Source of the DNA: an uncultured Clostridia bacterium
Lineage (GTDB): Bacteria; Bacillota; Clostridia; Christensenellales; Borkfalkiaceae
Assembly: GCA_944354125.1 (NCBI GenBank)
Contig: CALVPT010000010.1
Span: 11,543 to 75,542 of the forward strand
Length of the DNA: 64,000 bases
Direction: 5' to 3'
The position numbers and the translations under genes were made by a program. Under the pieces are notes generated by a model. It worked only from the letters and a program-made list of their open reading frames with translations. It ran no database searches and was not told the DNA's origin. How positions within the stretch are numbered: the stretch's first letter is position 1; the number at the start of each line of letters is the position of its first letter. Positions 21,104 to 37,477 of the stretch are shown here, piece by piece.

Positions 21104-21149
21104 CCTCTGACTCCGTCATTCGTTGGTTCAAATCCAGCTACCCCAGCCA
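21104..21149 (+). repeat. attachment-site direct repeat, copy 1: 3' half of a tRNA-Gln(CUG), from anticodon loop to CCA, with no 5' half
   Basis: Sequence parses as C-CTCTGAC-TCCGT-CATTC-GTTGG-TTCAAAT-CCAGC-TACCCCA-G-CCA. These segments are anticodon loop (CTG), anticodon stem 3' strand, variable loop, T arm, acceptor 3' strand, discriminator and CCA. Upstream bases cannot pair as the anticodon stem or acceptor 5' strand. Confidence 0.75.
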
Positions 21150-21153
21150 TAAG

Positions 21154-21202
21154 ACACTATATATTGTAAATTTCACTAAGAAAAATCAATATATAGTGTT
21201 TT
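21154..21202 (+). terminator. rho-independent terminator directly after the tRNA-Gln half
   Basis: 13-bp stem ACACTATATATTG (21154-21166) pairs with CAATATATAGTGT (21187-21199), followed by TTT. Confidence 0.6.
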
Positions 21203-21226
21203 AATTTTTGTCTTTTTTTAAGCTCT

Positions 21227-21255
21227 TCCCCAAATTGGGGAAAGAATTGGGGAAA
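21227..21255 (+). repeat. candidate integrase/Xis arm-type sites: TTCCCCAA/TTGGGGAAA palindrome plus a second TTGGGGAAA 12 bp later (a third at 21354-21362)
   Basis: TTGGGGAAA occurs at 21235-21243, 21247-21255 and 21354-21362. The same 9-mer recurs three times at the other end (37318-37350). Confidence 0.45.
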
Positions 21256-21368
21256 CTTTACGGAGTAATTTTTGCTCGTTGCCCTAAATTTTAAGTGTTT
21301 TGCCTGCTTATGCGGGCTTTTTTATTTGATTTTTGTTCTTTCAAAAATAGTCATTGGGGAAATTCCCG

Positions 21369-22598
21369 TCAGTAAATTACCTTCTCGGCTTCTTTAAGCT
21401 GAAATTCTTCCGAATAATGGGTGTACACTGTCGAGGTAATTGTACCGCTTAAACTGTGTCCAGCCCATATGCTCACGACCTCTGAGGCAACTCCGCATTC
21501 TTTGCAATGGCTGATAAAAGTATGCCTAAGTTCGTGCGGATGTCTTTCGGGCAAAAGCCTTTTCATTCTGGTTGAAATGGTATTAAGATTAGTTCTCTTA
21601 GCCTTTTCAAAGTCGATAAAAGAGGTGTATTTCTTAGCCTGAGGCGTAAAGGGTATCTTTCGTAAAACGACATTCTGCCCCAAACGCTCTTTACTGGTCT
21701 CGCATTGCAACCACTTGCCATCTATTATCTCTATGCTGGCAAGTTCTGACTTTCTTAAACCAAAGAGTAACAGTACTAGCAGTGCATCCGTGCCTTCAAC
21801 TTCTCTATGCGACTTGCAGTATTTTATAAGTCTTTCTTCCTCGTCTTTTGTGAGTGCCTGACCTTTCTTTGTCTGATAATTCGGCAACACGACTTTTTTC
21901 ATAGGGGAGGGGATAGAAAAGTCCTCAGCCGCCATATCGAATATGCAATTGAGCATGAGGGCGAGCTTTTCAGCTTTTCTGTGCTTATTTTCGCCGACTA
22001 TCCCGAAGAGATAATTTTGCAGTTCATTTCTCGTAATTTCTGCAAGAACTCTGTTGCCGAACATAGGCTCTAAATCTACACGGAAGGAACGCTCGTATTC
22101 CTTATAAGTTGAAGGTTTTGTCGTTTGCTCCTTGATTTTCAGCCAGTCGCGACCGTAATCTCCGAATAGTACCGTATCAGCAGTAGGAGTAGGAATTTCG
22201 GGAGTAATCTCTTCAATCTGTTGCTGACCAGCAGGACGGTCATAAAAGGCGGCAAGCTTTTGCATAAAGCGAGTACGCATTGTCTCAAAATCTCGACCAG
22301 AAGCCTCGATATACATTCCCTTGCGGCGAATGCGAGCCTCGAAGTATCCGTTAGAAGTTATTCTGTAATTTACTATGTAATTGTTTGCTATAAATATTTT
22401 TCTGATATGTTCCGGCATGGCTTTAATCTCCTGTTTAGTAAATTTAAAGCCGCTTTTGCCATTTTCAGAAATGTTTTCCCTGGTCTTGACAATCTCGCCC
22501 ATAGTCTTTCTTATGGCAGAGAGTTGCCCGTATAGTGCCGTCAACGCATTGCCTTCGGCACAATGTGCTAAGTTACCTGATGTCTTTCGATAGTTCAA
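21369..22598 (-). CDS. int: tyrosine site-specific recombinase (phage-type integrase), copy A
   Basis: C-terminal catalytic motifs are LLFGLRKSEL (Arg), HELRHTF (H-x-x-R), AGHS (His) and VYTHY (Tyr). The start is uncertain because the TTG at 22598 is only 2 nt from the AAGGAGA ribosome binding site. Confidence 0.9.
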   Translation of the reverse strand: MNYRKTSGNLAHCAEGNALTALYGQLSAIRKTMGEIVKTRENISENGKSGFKFTKQEIKAMPEHIRKIFIANNYIVNYRITSNGYFEARIRRKGMYIEASGRDFETMRTRFMQKLAAFYDRPAGQQQIEEITPEIPTPTADTVLFGDYGRDWLKIKEQTTKPSTYKEYERSFRVDLEPMFGNRVLAEITRNELQNYLFGIVGENKHRKAEKLALMLNCIFDMAAEDFSIPSPMKKVVLPNYQTKKGQALTKDEEERLIKYCKSHREVEGTDALLVLLLFGLRKSELASIEIIDGKWLQCETSKERLGQNVVLRKIPFTPQAKKYTSFIDFEKAKRTNLNTISTRMKRLLPERHPHELRHTFISHCKECGVASEVVSIWAGHSLSGTITSTVYTHYSEEFQLKEAEKVIY

Positions 22599-22641
22599 TT
22601 CTCCTTATTATTTGATTTGTGCAACCATAAAGTGCATTTAC

Positions 22642-22670
22642 AGTATAACACAGCTTTATAGATGTTGCAA
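22642..22670 (-). promoter_or_regulatory. promoter for int (minus strand): TTGCAA - 17 nt - TATACT
   Basis: Read on the minus strand as TTGCAACATCTATAAAGCTGTGTTATACT. It is conserved base-for-base in copy B (38902-38930). Confidence 0.55.
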
Positions 22671-22780
22671 TGTAGTCTCCTTAAAGTTGTAATTCCGAAA
22701 GGCAGGTATCGTCCTGCCGCTTAAGCAATTTTATTATAAATCTTAAATCTTCCAATTAAAAGGAACTAAATCGGTATCTT

Positions 22781-22828
22781 CCCACAACTTATACAACACA
22801 CCCCAACTATACCCCAACAAAACCCAAC
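22781..22828. repeat. phased CCCCAAC iterons (GTTGGGG on the minus strand) between the sigma-like gene and int
   Basis: CCCACAAC at 22781, CCCCAAC at 22801 and 22812, CCCAAC at 22823. The last three are 11 bp apart (one helical turn). They are identical in copy B (39041-39088). Confidence 0.5.
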
Positions 22829-22882
22829 TAAATGGAGAGGGGAGAGGCTCTTATAAAGTTGAATTTGTATTGGATGTTCATA

Positions 22883-23506
22883 TTAAACACCTCCCAAATA
22901 CTTGTTGTAACGCCTCTGAATGGTGTATATCACTGAGCCTATTGCTCCTACGCTTCTGTTAAGCAGGCGTCCGATCTCGCCCATGCTAAGACCTGCCATA
23001 CGATGAGTGAGTACTTTGCGCTGGCAGTCGTCGAGTTGCATTTTATCGATAATGTTATCAACAACTTTGAGTTCGTCCTCATCTGCACTATGTATTTGGG
23101 ATGTTTCCAGATGATATGCCTTTTCAAGGTCAACGTGTTTCGTAGTTATGCGGTATCTGCTACATATCATGCGATCGACCAGCTTATAGCAGTGGTATTT
23201 AATGGTTATAACTCTGCCCTTTTTGGTTATCTCGTAAGTATCTTCTAAGTGTTTCCCGAAGTGTTCACAGAGGAAGAGTGCCACAGTCTGAACTATGTCG
23301 TAATTGTCCGACATAATGTAGTCTGGGTTATCTTTGTTGAAGATGTCTTCGCAAACACCGAAGTGTGCCTTTGCAATGTACCTGCCGGAAAAGCGAATTA
23401 GGTACTTGGTTTCCTTGCATACGAGAAGTTCAGCCATATCGAGTACATTCTCACGGGATATGACCTCGGTCAGTATGTCGAAACTTCTTTCAATTTTCTT
23501 TTTCAT
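22883..23506 (-). CDS. sigma-70 region-4-like HTH protein (207 aa) of the integrase module
   Basis: C-terminus LDDCQRKVLTHRMAGLSMGEIGRLLNRSVGAIGSVIYTIQRRYNKYL looks like a sigma region 4 / LuxR-type HTH. The N-terminal 130 aa match no family I recognise. GGAGG ribosome binding site. Confidence 0.7.
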   Translation of the reverse strand: MKKKIERSFDILTEVISRENVLDMAELLVCKETKYLIRFSGRYIAKAHFGVCEDIFNKDNPDYIMSDNYDIVQTVALFLCEHFGKHLEDTYEITKKGRVITIKYHCYKLVDRMICSRYRITTKHVDLEKAYHLETSQIHSADEDELKVVDNIIDKMQLDDCQRKVLTHRMAGLSMGEIGRLLNRSVGAIGSVIYTIQRRYNKYLGGV

Positions 23507-23896
23507 AGGTGATTTACCTCCGTCTTGAGTTTTTCTGTCTTTCGACGGGGTAAAAAGGGCATAGGCGATTTATTGATTGCAGAACTCTGATGTAAGGGCA
23601 TCCCCTGTCAATAGAGAGAGGAAATTTCCTTAAAGTACTATGCTTATGTCCATATGAAATTTACGAACGACATTGACAGGGGTAAACGGCTATGCCAAAA
23701 TATCCCCTCGAAAGAGAAAAGGTGACGGTATAACCAAAAACACAGAATAGCCGTAAAAGCTCTTAATTAGCGTTCTGACGGCGATTAAGGGTTAAGTCGA
23801 GTATAATATCGAGGATAATACAAACAAGTGTTTATAAACTAAAATTACGCAACGCTGAGGGGAACAGCTAACAGAACACGGTGGGACAAAAAAGTA
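23507..23896 (-). other. conserved non-coding block (leader or ncRNA) with nested inverted repeats, duplicated at 39402-39800
   Basis: No ORF with a ribosome binding site. The outer inverted repeat CTTTCGACGGGGTAAAAAGGGCATAGG (about 23539-23565) pairs with CTATGCCAAAATATCCCCTCGAAAG (about 23691-23715). The inner perfect repeat CCCCTGTCAAT (23602-23612) pairs with ATTGACAGGGG (23672-23682). A 12-bp palindrome AGGAAATTTCCT lies at 23619-23630. Confidence 0.5.
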
Positions 23897-23942
23897 ACGC
23901 AGCACATTTGCGAGCGGGTTAGCGCAAAGTGCTGCGTTTTTG
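23896..23942. terminator. bidirectional rho-independent terminator
   Basis: The segment reads AACGCAGCAC-ATTTGCG-loop-CGCAAA-GTGCTGCGTT. It has an A-run upstream and a T-run downstream, so it is usable on either strand. Confidence 0.65.
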
Positions 23943-24064
23943 TCCGACGTTCTGTCGGTAGTTGTAGTTGGTTTACTTGTATCAAGGCAAGTCGATTTTA
24001 ATTGCTGTTTGTTATGTTTCGGCAATTATGTTGAGTTTGATTAAATTATGTTAATCGTTGAATT

Positions 24065-24143
24065 AAGTGGGCGTGAGCTTGTCTGCGGCGGCGCGAAGCG
24101 CCGACGCACTCGTCTATGACAAGCTCACGTCTAACTGCCACTT
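24065..24143 (+). other. GC-rich extended hairpin (about 30 paired positions, GAA-closed tip) in an AT-rich gene-free region; candidate structured RNA or DNA site
   Basis: AAGTGG pairs with CCACTT. CGTGAGCTTGTC (24072-24083) pairs with GACAAGCTCACG (24118-24129). The inner segment is TGCG-G-CGGCG-C-GAA-G-CGCCG-A-CGCA. It is followed by TTGTTATTTTTG. Confidence 0.45.
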
Positions 24144-24244
24144 GTTATTTTTGAATATGCTTATGTGATAGTGCTGAATATAAATTTTAGGGCTTTCGAT
24201 TGTGTCAATTTTAAGTGTTATTTCGTTGATTTAATTGCTTTAAG

Positions 24245-24348
24245 GTGTGCGCTTGGTCGGCGCCTGCGAGCGAAGCGAGCAGGTGGCAGAGCGGCGTCAG
24301 CCGCACTGCCAGCAAAATGCCGCCGCTTGTTAATAACCAAGCGCACAC
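24245..24348 (+). other. GC-rich three-helix structure (outer 13-bp stem plus two internal hairpins)
   Basis: GTGTGCGCTTGGT (24245-24257) pairs with ACCAAGCGCACAC (24336-24348). CCTGC...GCAGG (24263-24283) has a GAA tip. The segment TGGCAG-A-GCGGC-GTCA-GCCGC-A-CTGCCA spans 24284-24311. It is followed by a T-rich run. Confidence 0.45.
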
Positions 24349-24998
24349 ACTGCGGTCATTTGTTGTTTTTTACGGTAAAATTTAAGACAATTTTTTACAT
24401 ATACTAGGGGTATTTTCACAAGTAAAGACATAGATCAAGAAATATCTATTTATTCTTTTTTATAAAATATTCAATATTTAAGATTTACCATAAATAGATA
24501 ATATTAAAGGATTTTTTTATTTTACAGAAGATGTATTCATGGCAGTTGCCTAGCATATATGACCAATTTAACGTAGGGGCAAGGATTAATAGGTACAAAA
24601 TGTTATCGAAAGGTGGGATAATTATGCTAAACAGGGGATGTTAAAGCAGGTTAAAGAGATTGGTTATTGATTGGGATATATGCCATTCTCCAAGATACCT
24701 GCAAATAAGTTGCAGACAGTGCCGCTGAGTAGCATAATTCGCCATTCAGCGGCTTGCCGAATTTGTCTTTTACTTACTTTCAATAAGTGGGAGCCTACAT
24801 TGTTAATAAAAAATAATGATAATAGTAAATCTTTCCAAGGTAATTTCTTCGTTATTAATTCAAATTTGACTTATTCAATGTTTTCTTGAGAAATCGTATG
24901 AAATATTTAAAATTAAATTTTTTTGAGGGGACAGATATTTTAATTTTATTGTATAAAATTATTTTTCACTTGGAAATAATTATTCTTTCGACTAAGTA

Positions 24999-25026
24999 TT
25001 GACAAGCAAAATATACTGATTATAAT
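24999..25026 (+). promoter_or_regulatory. candidate promoter of the LytTR/kinase operon 1: TTGACA - 16 nt - TATAAT
   Basis: TTGACA at 24999-25004 and TATAAT at 25021-25026. A bulged hairpin lies in the 5' UTR (25037-25068). Confidence 0.5.
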
Positions 25027-25092
25027 TGTCTTAGTCGCCAAGGAAGCAAAACATTCCTTGCGGCGTAAAATGTTGTCACTTAGGGGGGGGAT

Positions 25093-25797
25093 ATGAATAT
25101 TGCGATAGTTGAAGATGTAGAAGAAGATGCAAAAGTGCTTAAAAAATGTATTAGTGCTTATGCAAAGAAGTATGAAGATGTTTGTGTAGTCAGTGTTTAT
25201 GCCGACGGGGTACAGTTTCTTACGGATTATAAGGCAAATTTTGACGTGGTTTTTATGGATATAGAAATGCCTTATCGAGACGGACTTAAAGTATCGGCGG
25301 CGTTACGTGAAATTGACCCTACCGTATGTCTTGTATTCATAACCAATATGCGTCAGTACGCGATAAAAGGTTATGAGGTGCAGGCATTCGACTTCATAGT
25401 CAAGCCTGTTAATTATGAAGTTTTTGAATTTCATTTCAAGCGCATAATGGAAAAGGTAAGAAGTAATCCGAAAGCAGAAATAATCATTACAAACCAGAGC
25501 AGTAAAAAGCGCGTCAGCGTGAGGGATATAGACTATGTCGAAGTTGTCAACCACAAAGTTCTGTTTCACCTTGGTGACAATACGATAGAGTCATGGTCGC
25601 CGCTCTATAAAGTTACAGAAGAACTTGAAAAATATGGTTTTGCCCTATGCAATTCGTGTTATCTGGTCAATCTAAGCCACGTTAAGTATGTGCAGGACAA
25701 TACAGTTTACGTTGCCGACGCTCAACTGAAAATAAGCAGACCCAAACGCAAAGAATTTATGGAGAAGCTGATGCTTTCGATGCGGAACGGAGGTTAG
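25093..25797 (+). CDS. LytTR-family response regulator (receiver plus LytTR DNA-binding domain), copy 1
   Basis: Receiver motifs are IAIVEDVEED and VVFMDIEMPYRDGL. The C-terminal part VRDIDYVEVVNHKVLFHL...CNSCYLVNLSHV is LytTR-like. Confidence 0.9.
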   Translation: MNIAIVEDVEEDAKVLKKCISAYAKKYEDVCVVSVYADGVQFLTDYKANFDVVFMDIEMPYRDGLKVSAALREIDPTVCLVFITNMRQYAIKGYEVQAFDFIVKPVNYEVFEFHFKRIMEKVRSNPKAEIIITNQSSKKRVSVRDIDYVEVVNHKVLFHLGDNTIESWSPLYKVTEELEKYGFALCNSCYLVNLSHVKYVQDNTVYVADAQLKISRPKRKEFMEKLMLSMRNGG

Positions 25798-25799
25798 CG

Positions 25800-27116
25800 A
25801 TGAGTATTCTTGAAAAAAGTCTTGAATTTGCCAACTCGTATATCATAACGCTTCTGGCTTTCGGTTTTATACTCTGCTGCCTTCAGCCTAAAAGAAAATA
25901 TTTTATTCTGCGGCTCATTCCCGTAATAGCGGCAGGCATATTTTTAAGTACCGATTTCTACCGCAACGCGCTTTCCATGGGTGGAGGCGGAGGAAGTATA
26001 TCGACAATGCCCTATTTTATCGGTTGGGCGATAGCTGTGCTGGCTATGTGGTTCTGCTTTAAAATCAGCTTTTTGCAGGCTCTTTTCTATCAATCGTTGT
26101 GTTATGTCATAGAACACATGATTTTTAATCTTAAGTTCGCCCTTATTTTGACTGAAATCGACGGTTTTAATGCTATTTGGGTCAATGCAGCGGTTCTTGG
26201 AATAAGAATTGCCATAGGTTTTGCAATTTACTTTTTGTTGGCCAAGCGGTTGGAGAAGTTGGACTATCTTCTCGAATATAAGGCGGTTGCGGTCATAATA
26301 GCCGCAGTAAACGTTGCGTTTACCATACTTTTGAATAATTGGTTTTATAACAGGGGATGGTTTTCCGAAGCATTGTATATAGTGCGCGTTCTGTTATGTA
26401 TATTTTTTGTTGCGCTCCCGTTTCTTCTCAGTGCGGTGCTGCGCAGCAAGACCGAAAAGCAAAAACTTGAACAGATGCTGATTGACGGTGAAAAACAACG
26501 GCGACTGTCAGAGGAGAATATTGAAGCCATAAATCGGAAATGTCACGATTTAAAATATCAGGTTGTCGCACTCAGGCAGCTTGCTGCAGACGGTAACCAT
26601 TCAAAGGTATATGACGATGCCGTAGACGCGCTTGAAAAGGACGTCATGATTTATGACTCGATAGCAAAAACCGGATATGGCGGCATAGACATACTTCTGA
26701 CGGAAAAAAGTCTTCTGTGCGATAAGAAAGGTATTCTTTTCACGTATATGATCGATGGCGAAAAGCTGATGTTTATGGACGAAGTTGACTTGTATATTCT
26801 GCTTGGCAATGCCTTGGATAATGCCATAGAGGCTGTATGCGAATTGCCCAAAGAACAGCGAATTATAAATATGGGTGTAATCTCACGCAATGAAATGACT
26901 ATGCTCAGCGTAGAAAATTTTTGCGCAAAGCCTCCTCAGATGGTCGACGGATTGCCTAAGACGACAAAAAAAGACAGCGCAAATCACGGGTTCGGAACAA
27001 AGAGTATAATCGGTATTGCTGAAAAATATGGGGGATCAGTTCAGTTTTTTACCTATGATGACAGATTTGTTCTCAATGTGTTATTCCCGTTCAGACAAAA
27101 TACGCAAAGTTTATGA
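25800..27116 (+). CDS. membrane sensor histidine kinase, AgrC/HPK10-like (GHKL ATPase), copy 1
   Basis: About 6 N-terminal TM helices. H-box NRKCHDLKYQVVAL, N-box LLGNALDNAIEA and G-box NHGFGTKSI are present. Confidence 0.85.
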   Translation: MSILEKSLEFANSYIITLLAFGFILCCLQPKRKYFILRLIPVIAAGIFLSTDFYRNALSMGGGGGSISTMPYFIGWAIAVLAMWFCFKISFLQALFYQSLCYVIEHMIFNLKFALILTEIDGFNAIWVNAAVLGIRIAIGFAIYFLLAKRLEKLDYLLEYKAVAVIIAAVNVAFTILLNNWFYNRGWFSEALYIVRVLLCIFFVALPFLLSAVLRSKTEKQKLEQMLIDGEKQRRLSEENIEAINRKCHDLKYQVVALRQLAADGNHSKVYDDAVDALEKDVMIYDSIAKTGYGGIDILLTEKSLLCDKKGILFTYMIDGEKLMFMDEVDLYILLGNALDNAIEAVCELPKEQRIINMGVISRNEMTMLSVENFCAKPPQMVDGLPKTTKKDSANHGFGTKSIIGIAEKYGGSVQFFTYDDRFVLNVLFPFRQNTQSL

Positions 27117-27164
27117 CAATTAACGAAAAGTCTGTTTAAATTTCAAATTCATAATGTTACATTG

Positions 27165-27197
27165 AATTCACCGAAGCGAATTTCGGTGAATTTTTTG
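27165..27197 (+). terminator. hairpin plus T-run between the kinase gene and the GH3 gene (terminator or attenuator)
   Basis: AATTCACCGAA (27165-27175) pairs with TTCGGTGAATT (27182-27192), followed by TTTTG. The GH3 ribosome binding site AGGAGG follows within 10 nt. Confidence 0.55.
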
Positions 27198-27212
27198 TTA
27201 GGAGGAAATGAG

Positions 27213-30605: not shown

Positions 30606-30707
30606 GGCGGTTGGCACGCATTAGCGACATAGAATACAGCGTATGCCAACCCTGTCAAAGGGTTGGCATTGCGTTTTATGAATAACAGAAAGAGGCTGAT
30701 TTTAATT

Positions 30708-32255
30708 ATGAAACTCAAAAAAATTATTGCCATATTGCTGACGGTCGGCGTGGCGGCAACCTTTGCTGTTCTGCCCGCCTGCAATAAGTCGGATGCGCAA
30801 TCCGGTCACAAAGTGCATATAGATACCGATTGGAACGGAATTTGCGATACCTGCGGTCAACCCATAGACGAGGCGAGCATTGTGCCCGAAAAACCCACGG
30901 ATACCACTCCCGAACAGCCGGATAATCCAGATGAAAAGCCTGATGATAAGCCTGATGATAAGCCTGAACAGCCGGATAATCCATCGACAGAACCGACAAA
31001 ACCCGTTGCGCGCATTACAGTCAAAAACGGTCCTGAAAAGAATGAGTATTTTGTGGGCGATGAGTTTATTCCGGACGGCGGCATGCTTACTGTAAATTAT
31101 ACCGACAGAACATCGGAAGAAATACCCTTTACGACAGCAGGTGTCACCTTTACGGGGGCAGATACTTCAAGTGTCGGCTCAAAGACAATAAGCGTGACAT
31201 ATGGCGGAAAGAAAGCCAACTTTACCATAAACGTCATTGCCGTTGCAGGCATCGTCACATTCGATATGAATTACGACGGAGCAGAAGATATGCTGGTAAA
31301 GGTTGGCGAAGGTCGTACGATAGCTAAACCTGAAGATCCTGTCCGCTCGGGATATGACTTCTTTGATTGGTACAGCGACGAGGCATGTACAATCTCATAC
31401 GAATTCGGCAAAGACATAATAACCGAGGATGTCACTGTCTATGCAAGCTGGAAGGGCAGCAACGACTTTGTCGTAACTTATGACCTCAATTACTACGGCG
31501 TTGCAAGAGAAGAATATTCCCAGATAGTTGCATACGGGGCTGCTGCGCGCCCGATAGCGCAACCTGAAAGAGCAGAATTTACATTCGGCGGCTGGTTTAC
31601 TGACGAGGCTCTGACAGATGAGTATAAGGCAGGCGAGGCAATAACCGAAGATACAATCATACGTGCAAAGTGGAACCGTATCTCTACGGAACGCAAGACC
31701 TATACGTTCGAGGCTGAAAATACCGACCTTACGGGCAAAGTAGGCCCCGGTTTCTCGGGCGAGTCTCTCGGCGCGGATATGATAGTCACCGATGTTGCGG
31801 GGCAGAATAATCTTGGCGCGAGTGGCGGAAGGTACGTTTCTTCGCTGTACAAGAAGGGGCTAGGGCTTGAATTCTATATTGCCAGCAGCGAAAAGGTAAC
31901 CGACGCCGAGATAACCGTCGCCGTAGCTTACGACAATGCTCTGGATAAGCCGGGTACGCTCACTTTCACAAGCGATGAATATCAGGTCATTGTCAATGGC
32001 AAGCCCATGCAATTTTCTGATTTTACCGTTGTTAAGGGCGAAAAATTCAGCGATAAGATTGTCATTAAGGGCGTAACGCTTGAAGAGGGATACAATTTTA
32101 TTCAGCTCCTCACCAACAACGACAGGCATCCTTGGGGCAATCCGGGAGAGGGTACTTATCAGGGAACGGCACCGGTAATAGACTGCATAAAAATTACGAC
32201 ATCGTCTGTGCTGATATGGGACCAGAACTATAATCTGCCTGCAAACGAAAAATAA
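30708..32255 (+). CDS. surface lipoprotein with Pro/Asp/Lys linker, Ig-like domain, two InlB-B-type (Listeria-Bacteroides) repeats and a C-terminal CBM6/35-like module
   Basis: Signal is MKLKKIIAILLTVGVAATFAVLPAC. Repeats are GYDFFDWYSDEACT...VTVYASW and FTFGGWFTDEALT...TIIRAKW. The C-terminal part YTFEAENTDLTG...GGRYVSSL...GYNFIQL resembles a carbohydrate-binding module. The start is uncertain (30663, 30678 or 30708). Confidence 0.7.
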   Translation: MKLKKIIAILLTVGVAATFAVLPACNKSDAQSGHKVHIDTDWNGICDTCGQPIDEASIVPEKPTDTTPEQPDNPDEKPDDKPDDKPEQPDNPSTEPTKPVARITVKNGPEKNEYFVGDEFIPDGGMLTVNYTDRTSEEIPFTTAGVTFTGADTSSVGSKTISVTYGGKKANFTINVIAVAGIVTFDMNYDGAEDMLVKVGEGRTIAKPEDPVRSGYDFFDWYSDEACTISYEFGKDIITEDVTVYASWKGSNDFVVTYDLNYYGVAREEYSQIVAYGAAARPIAQPERAEFTFGGWFTDEALTDEYKAGEAITEDTIIRAKWNRISTERKTYTFEAENTDLTGKVGPGFSGESLGADMIVTDVAGQNNLGASGGRYVSSLYKKGLGLEFYIASSEKVTDAEITVAVAYDNALDKPGTLTFTSDEYQVIVNGKPMQFSDFTVVKGEKFSDKIVIKGVTLEEGYNFIQLLTNNDRHPWGNPGEGTYQGTAPVIDCIKITTSSVLIWDQNYNLPANEK

Positions 32256-32266
32256 AGGAGCGCACC

Positions 32267-35200
32267 ATGAAAAATATATTTGGAACTATATTTGCAAAAA
32301 AAATTTCACGCATATGGTTTATAGTCACTGCGGTAGTACTTGCGCTGCTGATAGTAATTAACGTGCTTGCCAGTACGACTTTCTATACGGTCTTTGCCAG
32401 TGTGCTTGGTGGTCGTAGAGCTAAGTATGCAGAGGGAAGCGAAGCAATATATCTTCCTGATTACGACAGCAAAGAAGCTGTTTTGGCTGCAGCGGAAAAG
32501 TATAACGAAAAGATAGCGGAAGAAGGCTTTGTACTGTTGAAAAATAAAGACAATGCATTGCCTGTGTATACCCCCGAAAGTCAGGAACATGCTACCGCTG
32601 AAAAGCCTAAAGTAAGCATATTCGGCAAGAACAGCGTCAACCTTGCATACGGCGGTTCGGGTTCGGGTGGTGGAGGCGGTGCTTCTGCTAAGACGCTTTA
32701 TGATAGTCTGCATGAGGCGGGATACATCACTAATCCCGAACTTGAAAAGTTTTATTCTGACAATAATGCCTCCGGCAAGGCTCGTCCCGCAAAGCCGGAA
32801 GGTTCTAACCTTGATGACGGTAAGACTGTCACCATACCGACATATGAAACTCCTCAATCGATGTACACCGATGCCGTAACGCAGAGCTATGAGCAGTATT
32901 CAGATGTTGCCATAGTCGTATTCACCAGAATGGGCGGCGAAGGGTTCGATTTGCCTCGCACTATGGAAGGTTCTCCCGATACTCATTACCTCGAACTTGA
33001 CGAAAACGAAAAGGCGCTTTTGAAATCAGTATGTTCAGGACCGTTCAAAAAAGTCGTAGTGCTTCTCAACGTCGGTACGTCTATGGAATTGGGATTTTTA
33101 GACGCCCCTGAATACAACGACAGGATTGACGCTTGCCTTTGGATGGGTTTCCCCGGTAACAGCGGTGCAATGGCTGTCGGAAGAATACTCAACGGAAATG
33201 TAAATCCTAGCGGCAGGACGGTCGACACTTACGCTGCGGACTTTACGCTCAATCCCTCGTGGAATAATTTCGGTGAAAGTCAGAGCGGTTACGACTCCCT
33301 CCGCGTAGGCGGCAAGGACAGCGGATATTATTTTGTAGACTACGAAGAAGACATATATGTAGGATATAAATATTATGAAACGCGCGGATATGACGAAAAA
33401 CAGTCAGGTAATGGCGGCTGGTATGACCAGAATGTAATCTATCCATTCGGTTATGGCCTTTCCTATACGCAGTTTCAGTGGGAAATAAATGCCGATTCGC
33501 TGCGCGGAGCGACAATTGCCGCCGACGGTAAGTATGAGATAACCGTAAAAGTTACAAATACGGGCGATGTGGCGGGCAAAGACGTAGTTGAATTGTACGG
33601 ACATGCGCCTTACTATTATTTCGGTATAGAAAAGCCCTATGTCACTTTGCTCGATTTTGCCAAAACTCCGCTTATTCAGCCCGGCAAGAGCACGGAAGTT
33701 ACGCTGACTTTCGACCCGTATTATCTTGCAAGTTACGACTATAACGATGTAAACGGCAACGGGTTCTCGGGCTATGAGCTCGAAGCATACGACAGTTCTG
33801 CCGATGCACCTTATTGTCTGTATATTTCAGCAAATTCGCACGATTTTACAAACGCTATAGAGTTCAATGTGCCTGCGGAAGGAATAAAGTATGCCGAAGA
33901 TCCTACTACGGGCAACGATGTCGAGAACAGATATACCAGCAACGAAGATGCAAGGTATGACTCGGACTATCACATCACGTCTTCGGGGTCGCAGTATCTT
34001 ACAAGGGGCGATTGGAGCGGTACTATGCCCACTGCAGCCGTTACGGACACGAAGGACGAAAGAGAGGTCAGCGACCAACTCATAGCTTTTCTTGGTGAAA
34101 AACACAACACGAATTTCAGTGACGAAGATGTTGAAACCGATGTCGCGTTCGGCGAAGAGCTTGTGGTAAGTTACAGGGATATGCTTTACAATGAAGGTGT
34201 ATATGCCTTCGGCGAGGACGACGAGCAAAAGTGGCTTTCCTTTACCGACTATGACGATGGCAGGTGGAAGTATCTTCTGAATGCCGCAAGCTCCGACGAG
34301 CTTATCAATATGATAAATTACGGAGCGTTCCAGTCTGGGGCAATACCCAGCATCGGCAAACCGCTGACGAACGATACCGACGGCCCTTCGGGTTTTGTAA
34401 ACTTCATGCTTACCGACGGTACCTATTGGGGAACGTGCTACTATGCTTCACAGATAGTCGTCGCTTCCAGCTGGAGCGAAGAAATTGCTCAGGGCTTTGG
34501 CGAAATGGTCGGCAACGAGGGAATAATCGGTTCTGACGGGCACGGCAACGGTATGCCCTATTCGGGTTGGTATGCCCCCGGCGTAAACATACATCGTTCG
34601 CCTTTCGGTGGTCGTAACTTTGAATACTGTTCAGAAGATGCCCTTCTGACGGGTAAAATGGCGGCTGCACAAATTCGGGGTTGCCAGTCAAAGGGTGTTT
34701 ACTGCTTTGTAAAGCATTTTGCAGTCAACGACCAGGAAACTCACCGTTCAAGTAACGGCGTTTCGGTATGGCTCAATGAACAGACGCTCCGCGAAACCTA
34801 TTTGCGCGCCTTCGAAATAGTTGTCAAAGAGGGGAATACGAGGGCGATAATGTCATCCTTCAACCGCATTGGCGGCGTATGGGCAGGCGGCGACTATCGC
34901 TTGCTCACGGAAATACTTCGCGGCGAGTGGGGCTTTAACGGTACTGTCATAACCGACTTTACCAGCGGCGCATATATGAATGCTCGCCAGATGGCGTATG
35001 CGGGTGGCGACCTCAACCTCAACAATCAGGAAAAGTATATCTGGAGCGATTTTGATGAAAATAACGTCAACGATGTGGCGGTGCTCCGCCGCTGTGCGAA
35101 AAATGTTCTCTATACAGTTTTGCACTCGAACGCTATGAACGGCGAAATAATCGGATACGGTATGCCTGTATGGCAGATCTGTATGGTTGCTGTAGACTGC

Positions 35201-35323
35201 GTAATAGTTGCGGGGCTTGCTGTCTGGGGCTTCTTTGCCATAAAGGGCGCTTTCAAAAGCGTAATGTTTCCACCGAGGAATGATTTTAATAACACAGATA
35301 AACATCATTTCCTGAAATCATAA
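32267..35323 (+). CDS. glycoside hydrolase family 3, domain-permuted, with N-terminal signal-anchor and C-terminal TM helix
   Basis: N-terminal helix is IWFIVTAVVLALLIVINVLA. Motifs FVLLKNKDNALPV and IYPFGYGLSYTQF are followed by APGVNIHRSPFGGRNFEYCSEDA, KHFAVNDQE and GTVITDF. C-terminal helix is ICMVAVDCVIVAGLAVWGFFAI. Confidence 0.85.
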   Translation: MKNIFGTIFAKKISRIWFIVTAVVLALLIVINVLASTTFYTVFASVLGGRRAKYAEGSEAIYLPDYDSKEAVLAAAEKYNEKIAEEGFVLLKNKDNALPVYTPESQEHATAEKPKVSIFGKNSVNLAYGGSGSGGGGGASAKTLYDSLHEAGYITNPELEKFYSDNNASGKARPAKPEGSNLDDGKTVTIPTYETPQSMYTDAVTQSYEQYSDVAIVVFTRMGGEGFDLPRTMEGSPDTHYLELDENEKALLKSVCSGPFKKVVVLLNVGTSMELGFLDAPEYNDRIDACLWMGFPGNSGAMAVGRILNGNVNPSGRTVDTYAADFTLNPSWNNFGESQSGYDSLRVGGKDSGYYFVDYEEDIYVGYKYYETRGYDEKQSGNGGWYDQNVIYPFGYGLSYTQFQWEINADSLRGATIAADGKYEITVKVTNTGDVAGKDVVELYGHAPYYYFGIEKPYVTLLDFAKTPLIQPGKSTEVTLTFDPYYLASYDYNDVNGNGFSGYELEAYDSSADAPYCLYISANSHDFTNAIEFNVPAEGIKYAEDPTTGNDVENRYTSNEDARYDSDYHITSSGSQYLTRGDWSGTMPTAAVTDTKDEREVSDQLIAFLGEKHNTNFSDEDVETDVAFGEELVVSYRDMLYNEGVYAFGEDDEQKWLSFTDYDDGRWKYLLNAASSDELINMINYGAFQSGAIPSIGKPLTNDTDGPSGFVNFMLTDGTYWGTCYYASQIVVASSWSEEIAQGFGEMVGNEGIIGSDGHGNGMPYSGWYAPGVNIHRSPFGGRNFEYCSEDALLTGKMAAAQIRGCQSKGVYCFVKHFAVNDQETHRSSNGVSVWLNEQTLRETYLRAFEIVVKEGNTRAIMSSFNRIGGVWAGGDYRLLTEILRGEWGFNGTVITDFTSGAYMNARQMAYAGGDLNLNNQEKYIWSDFDENNVNDVAVLRRCAKNVLYTVLHSNAMNGEIIGYGMPVWQICMVAVDCVIVAGLAVWGFFAIKGAFKSVMFPPRNDFNNTDKHHFLKS

Positions 35324-35332
35324 AAAAGTTTA

Positions 35333-35378: not shown

Positions 35379-35479
35379 ACTTATTCAAGATTAAAAAATA
35401 TATTGACAAGGACTATGTTTAACAAATATTATATAAGCGTGTACAACGCTTATAGATGTTTGATAAAGGGAGGAATAAA

Positions 35480-36073
35480 ATGACAGAACGTGAAAAAATG
35501 CAGCAGGGGCTACTCTATGATGCCAATTATGATGAGGAATTATTGGCAGAAAGAATAAGATGTAAAGATTTGTGCTTTGAATACAATCAGTTGCCGCCCT
35601 CGCATACTTCCGAACAGGAGCAGATAATAAGGAAGCTTTTTAAAAGAACGGGTAAGCAATTCTGTATCACTGCCCCGTTCTGGTGCGATTATGGATGCAA
35701 TATAGAGATTGGAGAGAATTTTTATACCAATCATAACTGCATTATACTTGACGGTGCTAAGGTAGTGTTCGGGGATAACGTCTTCATTGCTCCGAATTGC
35801 GTATTTTCTACCGCAGGACATCCTCTGGATACAGAACAGCGCAACAAGGGGTTAGAATATGCTTATCCTATTACGGTTGGCAATAATGTATGGTTTGGTG
35901 CATCTGTAACCGTGTTGCCCGGCGTAAAAATAGGCAGTAATACTGTAATAGGTGCGGGAAGTCTCGTCAATCGTGATATCCCCGACGGTGTTGTTGCAGT
36001 AGGTAATCCGTGTATGGTGTTGCGCAAAATAACCGAAGAGGATAAGAAAAAGTATTGGAGGAATGTAAAATGA
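35480..36073 (+). CDS. maa: maltose/galactoside O-acetyltransferase (left-handed beta-helix)
   Basis: N-terminus MTEREKMQQGLLYDANYDEELLAERIRCKDLCFEYN is Maa-like and is followed by hexapeptide repeats. GGGAGG ribosome binding site before ATG 35480. A TTGACA-18-TATTAT promoter lies at 35403-35432. Confidence 0.85.
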   Translation: MTEREKMQQGLLYDANYDEELLAERIRCKDLCFEYNQLPPSHTSEQEQIIRKLFKRTGKQFCITAPFWCDYGCNIEIGENFYTNHNCIILDGAKVVFGDNVFIAPNCVFSTAGHPLDTEQRNKGLEYAYPITVGNNVWFGASVTVLPGVKIGSNTVIGAGSLVNRDIPDGVVAVGNPCMVLRKITEEDKKKYWRNVK

Positions 36074-36681
36074 AATTTGATTTGAATAACTTCAAATGGA
36101 CAAGACAACCAAAAAGTTTTAAAGTTCAGGATGATAATGTATCAATCGAAACCTTGCCTCATACAGACCTTTGGCAGAGAACTTATTATCATTTCCGCAA
36201 CGACAATGCACCCGTATTACAGATGGATACGGAGGAAAAGTTCTTTTCGTTTACCGTAAAGACGGACTTTTCGGGTGCGCATCACAGGTTTGACCAGTGC
36301 GGAATAGTAATGTATCTCGACAGCGAAAACTGGTTAAAGGCGTCGGTGGAATATGAGAACGAACGCTTTTCTCATCTCGGCAGTGTGGTGACGAACGGGG
36401 GTTACTCAGATTGGGCGACTACCGAAATAGGCAAGGATAGTACTGTAATGTGGTATCGCCTGAGCAGAAGGGAGGCCGACTATCGCATAGAGTGCTCGCG
36501 CGACGGCGTGAACTTTTCGCAGATGCGCATCTGTCATATTACAAAGGGTGCGGGAAAGATAAGTTTCGGCATATACGCCTGCTCTCCCGAGGATAGCTCG
36601 TTTACGGTAAAATTCTCTGATTTTTCACTTTCGGAGTGCAAGTGGTTGCCCCATGACGGACAGCAGCCTGATGAAGAATAA
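36070..36681 (+). CDS. DUF1349 family protein (concanavalin-like fold, unknown function)
   Basis: An ATGA start/stop overlap with maa is present. Motifs WTRQPKSF, HTDLWQRTYY, FDQCGIVMYLDSENWLK and VEYENE are as recalled for DUF1349. Confidence 0.7.
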   Translation: MKFDLNNFKWTRQPKSFKVQDDNVSIETLPHTDLWQRTYYHFRNDNAPVLQMDTEEKFFSFTVKTDFSGAHHRFDQCGIVMYLDSENWLKASVEYENERFSHLGSVVTNGGYSDWATTEIGKDSTVMWYRLSRREADYRIECSRDGVNFSQMRICHITKGAGKISFGIYACSPEDSSFTVKFSDFSLSECKWLPHDGQQPDEE

Positions 36682-36752
36682 TTTGTAAATAATAAAGCGA
36701 TTATTCTGATTGAATTTCGTTATGTTAGGCGATATGTCTTTTAGATGAACTA

Positions 36753-36793
36753 ATTCCCCTCGGCAGATATTTTCTCTGTCGAGGGGAATTTTA
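36753..36793 (+). terminator. hairpin terminator after DUF1349 gene
   Basis: AATTCCCCTCG (36752-36762) pairs with CGAGGGGAATT (36780-36790), followed by TTA. Confidence 0.5.
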
Positions 36794-36832
36794 CGAGGTC
36801 GAAATCGCTTATAGGTAAATTTGGGTGCATGA

Positions 36833-37190
36833 TTGGCACACAGTTTTAATCATCGGCAAAATCTCGACATAATTGGAAAAATGCCCAAGGACACGATTGA
36901 AAATCTCATAAAAAAGTTTGTGGAGATGAATGTAGCGCATCCGTTCATGGAAGGAAACGGCAGAAGTACAAGGATTTGGCTTTACCTTATAAAAGAAAAA
37001 TCTTAAAACTTGCACAGATTGGAGCAGGATAAATAAGAGAGAATATCTTGATGCAATGAGAGAAAGTCCCGTGGGTGCGGCGCATATATATGAACTTATA
37101 AAAAATGCGCAGACAACGCAAATAGATGATCGTGAAATTTTTATGAAGGGCATAGATTATTCATATTATTACGAACAAATCGACGAGTGA
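36833..37190 (+). pseudogene. Fic (filamentation induced by cAMP/AMPylase) gene remnant: N-terminally truncated and frameshifted
   Basis: Frame 2 reads ...KKFVEMNVAHPFMEGNGRSTRIWLYLIKEKS*, which contains the HPFxxGNGRxxR Fic motif. After the A-runs at 36991-37000 the reading continues in another frame as LKTCTDWSRINKREYLDAMRESP...REIFMKGIDYSYYYEQIDE*. Confidence 0.75.
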
Positions 37191-37317
37191 ATAAGTATAC
37201 ATAAAGCCATTGAGCATTTGTAGTAAGTGCTGCAATGGCTATTGCCTTGTTTTTAATACTAAAATGAAATTGTTTTTTATTGAATAAACAAAAATTTTTG
37301 TTTTTCAAATTGTAATT

Positions 37318-37350
37318 TTGGGGAAACTGAATTGGGGAAATTTGGGGAAA
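37318..37350 (+). repeat. three direct TTGGGGAAA repeats at the right end of element copy A
   Basis: Copies at 37318-37326, 37332-37340 and 37342-37350. This is the same 9-mer seen at 21235-21362. Confidence 0.45.
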
Positions 37351-37431
37351 TAATTTTCTGAAAATAAGCCAAAACGGCGGTTTTTAGGTAAAAAACATGC
37401 AAAAACAGTGGTTTTTTGAAAGCTAAATTTG

Positions 37432-37477
37432 CCTCTGACTCCGTCATTCGTTGGCTCAAATCCAGCTACCCCAGCCA
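37432..37477 (+). repeat. attachment-site direct repeat, copy 2: tRNA-Gln 3' half with a T-loop mutation
   Basis: Identical to 21104-21149 except C at 37455 (T at 21127). That position is the invariant T54, so this copy cannot be part of a functional tRNA. Confidence 0.75.

What the first reader, a model, noticed from the sequence alone, without database searches (positions are those of the whole stretch)
21104..37477. 46-bp direct repeats equal to the 3' half of tRNA-Gln(CUG) bracket a 16.4-kb segment carrying module 1
Seen in the sequence:
- 21104-21149 and 37432-37477 differ at one base.
- Both parse as anticodon loop (CTCTGAC), stem, variable loop CATTC, T arm, acceptor strand TACCCCA, G and CCA.
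- An integrase gene reads toward the left repeat, the lambda-like att-int layout.
- TTGGGGAAA repeats sit inside both ends, and a dead Fic gene sits at the right end.

Established knowledge: tyrosine integrases commonly target tRNA 3' halves and regenerate them as direct repeats.

Inference: a regulated GH3 glycan-utilisation cassette may be cargo of an integrative element.

Caveat: the cargo's base composition looks like the rest of the chromosome rather than like the int module. The repeats could therefore also reflect two independent insertions flanking resident DNA.
Basis: partly seen in the sequence, partly recalled or inferred. Interest (0 to 1): 0.65.

Follow-up and report, generated by a model that had tools for sequence, protein, structure and literature searches.

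The report
tRNA-Gln genomic island carrying GH3 genes
The 16.4-kb segment is a genuine integrase-borne genomic island carrying a sugar-degrading gene cassette, and it is the middle unit of a chain of such islands stacked at a tRNA-Gln attachment site in an uncultured chicken-gut Clostridia bacterium; this is a clean but ordinary example of a well-known kind of mobile DNA.

Summary
21104-21149 and 37432-37477 differ at one base, and the identity runs on through TAA (49 nt). Forty-five of the 46 nt equal positions 32-76 of the tRNA-Gln(CTG) genes of related genomes.

- Each repeat is followed by its own convergent tyrosine integrase (int1 21369-22598, int2 37618-38859). Each integrase sits in a duplicated 2.4-2.9 kb module.
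- The window holds no intact tRNA. The segment is therefore the middle unit of a tandem array: capsule/EPS island, att, GH3 island, att, truncated int module, chromosome.

Main support:
- All six TTGGGGAAA copies in the window lie just inside the segment's two ends.
- 21 of 54 homologous integrases in other genomes sit next to an intact tRNA-Gln(CTG).
- One MAG shows tRNA, a 56-kb element, a partial att and a second integrase in that order.
- Strains with 98% identical flanks lack the cassette.
- The block is 99% conserved while its neighbours vary.

No relaxase, replication or phage genes lie in the unit. Current mobility is untested, because only assembled contigs were available.

Verdict: a new member of a known kind (att-delimited genomic island, tandem accretion). 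Interest is modest.

The parts
1..21103 (+). Right-hand ~21 kb of the upstream island ('unit A'): a capsule/EPS biosynthesis operon running from Bac_transf to the dTDP-glucose dehydratase-like gene 19812-20834. Its conserved ~110-bp right-end arm lies at 20990-21103.
   Evidence: Pfam labels on called genes. In contigs L010-L012 the cluster is preceded by a third int (430 aa), a sigma-like gene, HTH_11 and a REP_ORF2-G2P Rep. The last 56-110 bp before att1 are shared with strains that carry different capsule genes (L073, L001).
21104..21152 (+). att1: a partial tRNA-Gln(CTG) copy (positions 32-76) plus TAA. It is the attL of the GH3 island and also the attR of unit A.
21153..21368 (+). Left arm of the GH3 island. 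It holds a terminator-like hairpin (ACACTATATATTG 21154-21166 / CAATATATAGTGT 21187-21199, then a T run) and three TTGGGGAAA repeats (21235, 21247, 21354), which are candidate arm-type Int sites.
   Evidence: The same layout follows intact tRNA-Gln genes in L018, L020-L024 and L090.
21369..22598 (-). int1, a tyrosine integrase of 409 aa. Its catalytic residues R282, H355, R358, H381 and Y392 are invariant in the family alignment.
   Evidence: Pfam Phage_integrase, Phage_int_SAM_3 and Phage_int_M; PHROG integrase E=3e-40; alignments
22883..23506 (-). A 207-aa protein with a weak sigma-70 region-4-like C-terminal HTH. It is upstream of int1 in the same orientation and is a probable regulator of the module.
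   Evidence: Weak Sigma70_r4_2 and HTH_38 hits. It is conserved next to int in unit A, L001, L002, L006, L032, L035 and L041.
23525..23722 (.). A ~190-nt imperfect palindrome directly upstream of the sigma-like gene, conserved more strongly than the flanking genes. Candidate origin, oriT or operator.
23889..23956 (.). A strong hairpin with T runs on both strands (bidirectional terminator-like). Homology between the two int modules ends here (23956/39843).
   Evidence: (D17)
23957..25092 (+). AT-rich spacer without credible ORFs. It contains a perfect sigma-70-type promoter match (TTGACA-16-TATAAT, 24999-25026) in front of the cargo operon.
25093..27116 (+). Two-component system: a LytTR response regulator (25093-25797) and a GHKL histidine kinase (25800-27116).
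27162..35323 (+). Three genes: GH3 glycosidase a (27162-30605), a Big_3/Listeria-Bacteroides-repeat surface protein (30663-32255) and GH3 glycosidase b (32267-35323). In both GH3 proteins the GH3 C-terminal domain precedes the N-terminal one.
35456..36681 (+). Maltose-acetyltransferase-like hexapeptide transferase (35456-36073) and a DUF1349 protein (36070-36681).
36833..37190 (+). Frameshifted Fic/DOC gene remnant.
   Evidence: An intact HTH-Fic gene is present in the related element L019.
37318..37431 (+). Right arm of the GH3 island, with three TTGGGGAAA repeats at 37318, 37332 and 37342.
37432..37480 (+). att2: a partial tRNA-Gln copy with T54->C. It is the attR of the GH3 island and the attL of the next int module.
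37481..39843 (-). Truncated third unit ('M2'). Parts: its own hairpin and two TTTGGGACT repeats (37584, 37596); int2 (37618-38859, 413 aa, 77% identical to int1 and mosaic); the last ~89 codons of the sigma-like gene (39165-39431); a second palindrome copy (~39417-39612); a terminator hairpin (39777-39828). It has no cargo and no right-hand att.
40040..40414 (+). C-terminal fragment of a GH78 alpha-L-rhamnosidase gene abutting the int module. It marks an old deletion that is the right boundary of the array in every strain seen.
   Evidence: Precomputed Pfam Bac_rhamnosid6H and Bac_rhamnosid_C on the 118-124 aa products. The junction is shared at 98-100% identity by L001-L007 and L088.

Best explanation
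21104-37480 is a site-specifically integrated genomic island (body 21153-37431, 16.3 kb). It belongs to a family of tyrosine-integrase elements that target the 3' part of tRNA-Gln(CTG) in chicken-, rabbit-, ruminant- and human-gut Clostridia (Christensenellales-like MAGs).

Proposed mechanism (inferred):
- The circular form carries an attP made of the tRNA 3' part (positions 32-76), flanked by TTGGGGAAA arm repeats.
- Int1 recombines attP with a tRNA-Gln-derived att site. This leaves int1 reading toward the left copy and the other arm next to the right copy.

Here the island did not land in a naked tRNA gene. It lies inside a tandem array formed by successive integrations (accretion):
- upstream is a capsule/EPS island of the same family (its own int, sigma-like gene and rolling-circle Rep lie outside the window);
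- downstream is a decayed third unit that keeps only att, int2 and a truncated sigma-like gene, fused by an old deletion to a GH78 gene fragment and the chromosome.

Both repeats are therefore hybrid attR/attL sites. The intact tRNA-Gln must lie further left, probably next to sbcDC.

The cargo is a self-contained, two-component-regulated glycoside-hydrolase cassette: LytTR regulator, GHKL kinase, two GH3 enzymes, a surface-repeat protein, an acetyltransferase and DUF1349. It has its own consensus promoter.

The cassette can be lost in two ways: Int-mediated att x att excision, or RecA-mediated deletion between the two 2.4-2.9 kb directly repeated int modules.

Shown: the sequence anatomy, the family-wide association with tRNA-Gln, and the strain-level presence/absence. 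Inferred: the integration mechanism, the arm-site function and present-day mobility.
For: - **Repeat.** Two copies, none expected by chance. They equal tRNA-Gln(CTG) positions 32-76 of relatives.
- **Arm repeats.** All six TTGGGGAAA copies in the window lie just inside the two ends, in the same orientation.
- **Family layout.** The order 'CCA, hairpin with T run, 2-4 TTGGGnnn repeats, int stop' recurs in 24 loci of the family, with lineage-specific repeat sequences.
- **Integrase.** int1 is intact, with all catalytic residues.
- **tRNA association.** Of 54 homologous int loci in species-representative genomes, 21 have an intact tRNA-Gln(CTG) a few hundred bp (about 120-560) beyond the int stop, convergent with it. 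Six have only a partial copy, and eight of a distant clade sit at tRNA-Leu(TAA).
- **Precedent for the array.** Contig JAHZBZ010000001 has an intact tRNA at ~29.6 kb followed by int, then 56.5 kb, then a partial att at ~86.3 kb followed by a second int (L020/L021).
- **Polymorphism.** L001/L004 read capsule genes, att, int1-like module, GH78 remnant, ABC transporter. They have no cassette, yet are 98% identical on the right flank.
- **Block conservation with changing neighbours.** The block is 99.2-99.9% identical in L072-L075, L078, L081, L083 and L084. To its left are capsule type 1, capsule type 2 or a serine-recombinase element. To its right are M2, M3 or an int-less third GH3 cassette.
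- **Composition.** GC is 0.41 (module) and 0.46 (cargo) against 0.515 (chromosome).
- **Possible left anchor.** L090 shows sbcC, sbcD, abhydrolase, an intact tRNA-Gln and an int1-type arm. Its GC is 0.525, like the window's chromosome.
Against: - No intact tRNA-Gln was found in the window, nor in about 10 kb of contig sequence to its left in same-species contigs. The upstream int_A has no att copy next to it.
- No circular junction and no precise empty site was seen, but only assembled contigs could be examined.
- The cassette-free strains carry an int1-like module, not int2. They are therefore not the simple att x att excision product of the window's arrangement.
- The unit has no excisionase, relaxase or replication gene that I could recognise. 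How it would transfer between cells is unknown.
- int1 and int2 have nearly identical N-terminal halves but different putative arm repeats. This is awkward if the N-terminal domain reads those repeats.
Confidence: 0.85

Rival explanations
1. The island is of integrative origin but is now a fixed fossil. Int1 no longer excises it. The strain-to-strain presence/absence comes only from homologous recombination between the directly repeated int modules, or from allelic replacement of the whole locus.
For: - The cassette-free strains (L001/L004) have an int1-like module fused to the shared tail/GH78 junction. That is the outcome expected of module x module deletion or replacement, not of att x att excision.
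- The int genes are mosaic, with breakpoints inside int and the sigma-like gene.
- Hybrid-module joints appear in metagenome contigs.
- No attP or exact empty-site contig was found.
- There is no recognisable excisionase.
Against: - int1 is full length with every catalytic residue. The two att copies differ at one base and both arm clusters are intact.
- The block is 99% conserved in several neighbour contexts.
- Contig data cannot reveal rare excision events.
Confidence: 0.3
2. One reading: two independent int-module insertions happen to flank resident chromosomal DNA, so the GH3 cassette is not cargo.
For: - There really is a second, independent int module right of the right repeat.
- A paralogous LytTR-kinase-GH3 module sits in the chromosome at 50374-56755.
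- Cargo GC (0.46) is closer to the chromosome than the module's is.
Against: - The cognate TTGGGGAAA arm cluster lies on the cargo side of att2, 82-114 nt from it. It pairs with the cluster next to int1.
- Strains with 98% identical flanks lack the cassette.
- The cassette always travels with int1, while what lies beyond att1 changes.
- The paralogs are only 30-40% identical.
- A single attB cannot leave resident DNA between two partial tRNA copies without rearrangement.
Confidence: 0.05
3. The two repeats arose by segmental duplication of one 2.8-kb att-int module (unequal crossing-over). The cargo then arrived between the copies by some other route, and no second site-specific integration took place.
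For: The modules share 88-96% identity over 21687-23956 / 37954-39843, far beyond the att itself.
Against: - Between att and codon ~245 of int the two modules are unrelated or only ~55% identical. They also carry different hairpins and different arm repeats.
- The right-arm TTGGGGAAA cluster lies outside the duplicated module.
- Modules at the terminal position differ by 10-15% between strains whose flanks are 98-99% identical. This points to repeated arrival of new elements.
Confidence: 0.05

Closest known systems
Tandem accretion of integrative elements at one att site (ICESt1/ICESt3-CIME arrays at fda in Streptococcus thermophilus; IME/ICE tandems at tRNA-Lys in S. agalactiae), as reviewed in PMC5704250
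   Same: [quoted passage not shown] The results are internal hybrid att sites, decayed neighbouring elements, and integrases of shared specificity but divergent sequence (for the published scheme; for this case).
   Different: No conjugation or mobilisation genes were found in the unit. The target is tRNA-Gln(CTG). The hosts are uncultured gut Clostridia. The cargo is glycan degradation and capsule synthesis rather than resistance or restriction. Excision and cis-mobilisation are untested here.
Classical tRNA-linked genomic islands with P4/lambda-type tyrosine integrases
   Same: The integrase gene lies next to attL and reads toward it. The direct repeats equal the tRNA 3' part. Arm-type repeats flank the core, and the element supplies a new terminator for the tRNA.
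   Different: The intact tRNA is not at this unit's left end because another island lies in between. The integrase is a distinct Firmicutes lineage with a long N-terminal extension and is paired with a sigma-region-4-like gene.
Dehalococcoides ssrA-targeted genomic islands carrying reductive dehalogenase operons (PMC3146451)
   Same: Metabolic operons with their own regulators are carried on integrase-bearing islands. The islands stack in tandem at a single small-RNA gene and leave direct repeats of its 3' end. This comparison rests on the paper's title and abstract as listed, plus my own knowledge.
   Different: A different target gene, integrase family and phylum.
iOriT-type genomic islands, 'minimal hitchers' that carry an integrase and an oriT but no relaxase (bioRxiv 10.64898/2026.01.13.699239)
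   Same: The unit has an integrase, att sites and cargo, but no relaxase and no mating-pore genes (for the concept; for the gene content). A strongly conserved non-coding palindrome sits in the backbone.
   Different: Nothing here shows that the palindrome is an oriT. No helper element was identified.

Membership tests
att-delimited genomic island integrated by a tyrosine recombinase at a tRNA gene | Encodes a tyrosine recombinase with the catalytic R-H-R-H/W-Y residues | tested here: met
   Pfam Phage_integrase above its cut-off (38.1 vs 27.1 bits) plus the SAM-like and central domains. R282, H355, R358, H381 and Y392 are invariant across six family members.
att-delimited genomic island integrated by a tyrosine recombinase at a tRNA gene | Flanked by direct repeats identical to the 3' part of the target tRNA | tested here: met
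   49-nt repeats with 1 mismatch. 45/45 and 44/45 nt match positions 32-76 of the tRNA-Gln(CTG) of L018/L023.
att-delimited genomic island integrated by a tyrosine recombinase at a tRNA gene | The copy at the integrase end completes an intact tRNA gene | tested here: not met
   No tRNA or tRNA 5' half in the window. This is explained by tandem integration behind another island. The feature is met by 21 relatives and by the first unit of the array in JAHZBZ010000001 (L020).
att-delimited genomic island integrated by a tyrosine recombinase at a tRNA gene | Present in some strains and absent from others at the same locus | tested here: met
   L001/L004 lack 23.7-39.7 kb while 39725-49661 is 98% identical. 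However, the missing stretch is bounded within the int modules, not by the att sites.
att-delimited genomic island integrated by a tyrosine recombinase at a tRNA gene | Excises to a circle (attP), leaving attB | not testable with these tools
   All 40-odd public runs holding the sequence are kept only as assembled contigs. No att x att joint appears in them or in the fetched contigs.
Integrative and mobilizable element (IME) | Carries a relaxase and/or a demonstrated oriT | tested here: not met
   No relaxase, Rep or mobilisation domain in any ORF of 21153-37431. The conserved palindrome 23525-23722 is only a candidate.
Integrative and conjugative element (ICE) | Encodes a type IV secretion/mating-pore system and a coupling protein | tested here: not met
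   The gene content is an integrase, a sigma-like protein, a two-component system, glycosidases, a surface protein, an acetyltransferase, DUF1349 and a Fic remnant.
Prophage or phage satellite | Capsid, terminase, portal or other virion/packaging genes | tested here: not met
   None found by Pfam on the ten listed ORFs of the unit. PHROGs was run only on int1 and the sigma-like protein of the unit and gave only an integrase match and a weak sigma-factor match.
cis-mobilizable element (CIME) | Keeps attL and attR but has lost its integrase | tested here: not met
   The unit keeps an intact int1. The concept fits better the int-less GH3 cassette that follows att in L081/L082. It does not fit the M2 remnant, which keeps int but has no right att.
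Bacteroidetes-type polysaccharide utilisation locus | A SusC/SusD pair next to glycoside hydrolases | tested here: not met
   The 1147-aa and 530-aa products are a GH3 enzyme and a Big_3/Flg_new repeat protein, not SusC/SusD. The host is a Clostridia lineage.

The most novel reading that the evidence does not exclude
The int + sigma-like + palindrome module may be a minimal mobility backbone. The ~190-nt palindrome is 88-90% identical between elements whose proteins are only ~50% identical. It could be an origin of transfer or a single-strand replication origin. If so, the tRNA-Gln array would work as an exchange platform. On it, capsule loci and self-regulated LytTR-kinase-GH3 cassettes, some of them int-less, would be swapped between gut Christensenellales strains by hitching on helper elements.
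Probability: 0.15. Interest if true: 0.55.

Novelty: new member of a known kind. Interest (0 to 1): 0.35.

Why it matters
It shows that, in an abundant but uncultured chicken-gut Clostridia lineage, both a capsule/EPS locus and a regulated GH3 glycan-degradation cassette are strain-variable cargo. Both ride on integrase-borne islands stacked at one tRNA-Gln site.

This gives a concrete mechanism for strain-level differences in carbohydrate use and surface structure in this group. It also provides a defined att/Int pair, with a clear arm-repeat architecture, that could be tested or used as an integration tool for Christensenellales-like bacteria.

Conceptually it adds an example to tandem accretion at tRNA genes rather than a new principle.

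Tried and rejected
- **Raw-read test for excision.** Two run searches returned only runs stored as assembled contigs. Laying four of them on 20300-39900 showed contig breaks at att and joints between the two int modules, but no att x att joint. Contigs cannot show rare forms.
- **Excision product in assemblies.** I looked for contigs with capsule genes, att and the M2 arm, and for attP (island right end, att, M1 arm). None was found.
- **Exact look-up of int2.** Not on record.
- **Extending right of the window to find a terminal att.** Only short contigs came back.
- **Decayed att copies.** Searches near int_A and elsewhere, allowing up to 9 of 45 mismatches, found none.
- **Rfam.** Nothing on the whole window at gathering thresholds, and only miRNA noise on 23450-25100 at relaxed thresholds.
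- **The 114-aa ORF 36809-37153 (-).** It is the antisense strand of the Fic remnant, not a gene.
- **An early Bacteroidetes PUL (SusC/SusD) reading.** Rejected after Pfam and the taxonomy of relatives.
- **Remnants of the HTH_11 and Rep genes of unit A inside the GH3 island.** None.
- **Finding the species' own intact tRNA-Gln through the sbcD flank of L018.** This led to L090, which has matching GC and an int1-type arm. I could not prove it is the same species.

Full report
**1. The observation**

The 46-mer at 21104-21149 recurs once, at 37432-37477, with one mismatch. No match occurs in shuffled sequence. The identity continues through TAA, giving 49 nt.

ARAGORN and Rfam find no tRNA in the window. 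The tRNA 5' half is also absent. I aligned the repeats to tRNA-Gln(CTG) genes called in related genomes. They equal positions 32-76: anticodon loop CTCTGAC, 3' anticodon stem, variable loop CATTC, T arm, acceptor strand, G73 and CCA. The score is 45/45 for the left copy. The right copy carries T54->C. The leading C of each repeat is not tRNA sequence.

- an integrase reads toward the left repeat;
- TTGGGGAAA repeats lie inside both ends;
- a dead Fic gene lies at the right end.

**2.

The right repeat is followed, 140 nt on, by a second convergent integrase gene, int2 (37618-38859). The two att-int regions belong to a duplicated module, 21104-23956 versus 37432-39843. The module consists of:
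- att;
- an element-specific hairpin and short tandem repeats;
- int;
- a 207-aa gene with a weak sigma-70 region-4-like HTH, reduced to its last ~89 codons in copy 2;
- a ~450-nt conserved non-coding tail that ends in a strong hairpin.

Int1 and Int2 are 77% identical overall and mosaic. The first ~245 residues are about 95% identical, while the catalytic domains are about 55% identical. All catalytic residues are kept in both. Next to int2 the tandem repeat is TTTGGGACT rather than TTGGGGAAA. It has no partner cluster to the right.

Right of the second module, the sequence runs straight into a C-terminal fragment of a GH78 rhamnosidase gene. Housekeeping genes at 51-52% GC follow: an ABC transporter, pfk, ppx and ppk.

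**3. The integrase family and its target**

A profile of the integrases found 54 loci in species-representative genomes. All are uncultured gut Clostridia or Christensenellales-like MAGs. The nearest named one is Candidatus Gallimonas intestinigallinarum.
- In 21 loci an intact tRNA-Gln(CTG) lies a few hundred bp beyond the int stop, convergent with it.
- In 6 loci only a partial copy lies there.
- Eight members of a distant clade sit at tRNA-Leu(TAA).

The layout downstream of the CCA is the same throughout the family: an element-specific terminator-like hairpin with a T run, then 2-4 tandem copies of a lineage-specific TTGGGnnn motif, then the int stop. Examples of the motif are TTGGGGAAA, TTGGGGGAT, TTTGGGAGT, TGTGGGGTAA and TTGGGAAG. 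This is what arm-type integrase sites look like. Their function is inferred, not shown.

In the window, all six TTGGGGAAA copies (0.67 expected) lie at 21235-21362 and 37318-37350. That is just inside the two repeats, in one orientation. This pairs the two ends as attL and attR of an int1 element.

One MAG contig (JAHZBZ010000001) shows the complete pattern. An intact tRNA-Gln and int are followed by 56.5 kb, then a 50-nt partial copy and a second int (L020/L021).

**4. The array in this species**

Metagenome contigs from chicken-gut samples carry the same locus. L088 is 100% identical to the window and L003 is 99.9% identical.

To the left of the window, the capsule/EPS operon is preceded by:
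- a third integrase (430 aa, 48% identical to Int1);
- its own sigma-like gene;
- an HTH_11 gene;
- a REP_ORF2-G2P rolling-circle Rep (L010-L012).

The last ~110 bp before att1 are shared by strains with different capsule genes (L073, L001). They resemble the right arm of the GH3 island. The capsule cluster is therefore itself cargo of a family member, and att1 is a hybrid attR/attL.

No att copy survives next to that third integrase, and no intact tRNA was reached. I followed the sbcD-like flank of the tRNA in L018 to homologs. This led to contig L090, which reads sbcC, sbcD, abhydrolase, intact tRNA-Gln(CTG), then an int1-type arm. Its GC is 0.525, matching the window's chromosome at 0.521. 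It is a plausible left anchor, but it is not proven to be the same species.

**5. Population evidence that the GH3 segment is an inserted unit**

The block 21153-37431 is 99.2-99.9% identical in eight contigs, while its surroundings change.

Left of att1:
- capsule type 1 (window, L072, L078);
- capsule type 2 (L073; homology starts at 21048);
- a large-serine-recombinase element with GmrSD and AlwI-type genes that has cut the att down to its last six bases (L074; homology starts at 21144).

Right of att2:
- the M2 module (window, L003, L084, L088);
- a module with a different int N-terminus and an intact sigma-like gene (L002, L083);
- a third LytTR-kinase-GH3 cassette with no integrase at all (L081/L082).

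L001 and L004 have no cassette. They read capsule genes, att, int1-like module (93% protein identity), intact sigma-like gene, GH78 fragment, ABC transporter, with the right flank 98% identical.

Cargo GC is 0.46 against 0.515 for the chromosome. The chromosomal LytTR-kinase-GH3 module at 50374-56755 is only 30-40% identical at protein level. The cassette is therefore neither chromosome-like nor a recent duplicate.

**6. Limits**

- The cassette-free strains are not the simple att x att excision product, which would leave int2 next to the capsule genes. They carry an int1-like module fused to the shared tail/GH78 junction.
- The int modules are mosaic. Modules at the terminal position differ by 10-15% between strains whose flanks are 98-99% identical.
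- Both points suggest frequent homologous recombination between directly repeated modules. This is a second, integrase-independent route to gain, loss and swapping.
- Whether Int1 still excises the island could not be tested. Every public run holding the sequence is stored only as contigs. Those show breaks at att and module-to-module joints, but no att x att joint.
- The unit has no recognisable excisionase, relaxase, Rep or phage gene. Its means of transfer between cells is unknown.

**7. Comparison with known systems**

The arrangement matches the published scheme of tandem accretion. In that scheme an incoming element integrates into an att site of a resident, often decayed, element. This gives arrays with internal hybrid att sites and integrases of shared specificity (PMC5704250). 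It also resembles the ssrA-targeted island arrays of Dehalococcoides that carry metabolic operons (PMC3146451).

The unit fails the defining tests for an ICE, an IME, a prophage and a Bacteroidetes PUL (see the membership table). It fits 'att-delimited genomic island'. The one expected departure is that the intact tRNA is displaced by an upstream unit.

**8. Verdict**

The finding is a new member of a known kind.

One feature might lead somewhere new. It is the ~190-nt palindrome upstream of the sigma-like gene (23525-23722, with a second copy at ~39417-39612).
- It is 88-90% identical to elements whose Int and sigma-like proteins are only ~50% identical.
- It folds far better than shuffles on both strands (z about -6).
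- It lies between the sigma-like and Rep genes where a Rep is present.

It may be an origin, an oriT or an operator. This was not resolved.

Noticed in passing
window 23525-23722 and ~39417-39612; also L011 4867-5072, L035 ~8744-8952, L041 ~8746-8953: A ~190-nt imperfect palindrome lies directly upstream of the sigma-like gene. It is 88-90% identical between elements whose Int and sigma-like proteins are only 44-54% identical. Nested stems give a DNA-fold z of about -6 on both strands, there is no Rfam match, and it is too invariant to show covariation. Where a rolling-circle Rep gene exists, the palindrome sits between it and the sigma-like gene. It may be an origin, an oriT or an operator.
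   Followed up: partly
window 1-21103, with L010-L012 for the part left of the window: The whole capsule/EPS operon appears to be cargo of another element of the same family. Upstream lie an int (430 aa), a sigma-like gene, the palindrome, HTH_11 and a REP_ORF2-G2P Rep, and the cluster ends in a shared ~110-bp right arm before att1. Different strains carry different capsule gene sets in this slot (L001, L073). L035 and L041 in other species show the same sigma-like and Rep genes, plus a homolog of the 163-aa ORF that precedes the capsule operon here.
   Followed up: partly
L074 5850-6070 and L006 14200-14983; compare L019 11430-11450: In some strains a large-serine-recombinase element (with GmrSD, an AlwI-type endonuclease and an HTH/M78 peptidase) ends inside the att site and leaves only its last six bases (CAGCCA). 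The break is at the same nucleotide in two contigs, and at the same place with a different neighbour in L019. This suggests that a second family of elements uses the tRNA-Gln 3' end.
   Followed up: partly
L081/L082 8360-14612: In these contigs the right att of the GH3 island is followed by an M2-like hairpin and GTGGGG-type repeats. A third LytTR regulator, kinase and GH3 (1210 aa) cassette then follows directly, with no integrase. This may be a decayed, CIME-like unit. It suggests that such cassettes are recurrent cargo at this site.
   Followed up: partly
window 39844-40414: Only the last ~120 codons of a GH78 alpha-L-rhamnosidase gene remain, fused to the end of the int2 module. The junction is shared by every strain examined. 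An old deletion therefore removed the third unit's cargo, its right att and part of this gene.
   Followed up: partly
window 21369-22598 vs 37618-38859: The two integrases are mosaic. Residues 1-245 are ~95% identical and the catalytic domains are ~55% identical. The switch coincides with different hairpins and different tandem repeats (TTGGGGAAA vs TTTGGGACT) between int and att. Strain-to-strain breakpoints also fall inside int (~38172).
   Followed up: partly
window 27162-30605, 32267-35323, 53612-56755: All three large GH3 proteins have a permuted domain order: the GH3 C-terminal domain and the Fn3-like domain come first, and the GH3 N-terminal domain lies near the C-terminus. They are 29-36% identical to each other.
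   Followed up: no
L052-L057, L062, L064, L065: A distant clade of the same integrase family (38-43% identity, Christensenellaceae MAGs) lies next to tRNA-Leu(TAA), at the end of a Val-Gly-Cys-Leu tRNA cluster, instead of next to tRNA-Gln.
   Followed up: no
window 24069-24131 and 24246-24352: Two GC-rich long inverted repeats sit in the otherwise AT-rich spacer between the int module and the cargo. Metagenome contigs show length variants exactly here (skips of 349, 87 and 50 nt). They may be small palindromic insertions.
   Followed up: no
L092-L095, L090, L012, L079, L080: Many metagenome contigs of this and sister species end within or right next to the tRNA-Gln gene, the att copies or the int genes. 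The repeated modules break short-read assemblies, so MAGs will usually under-represent these arrays.
   Followed up: no
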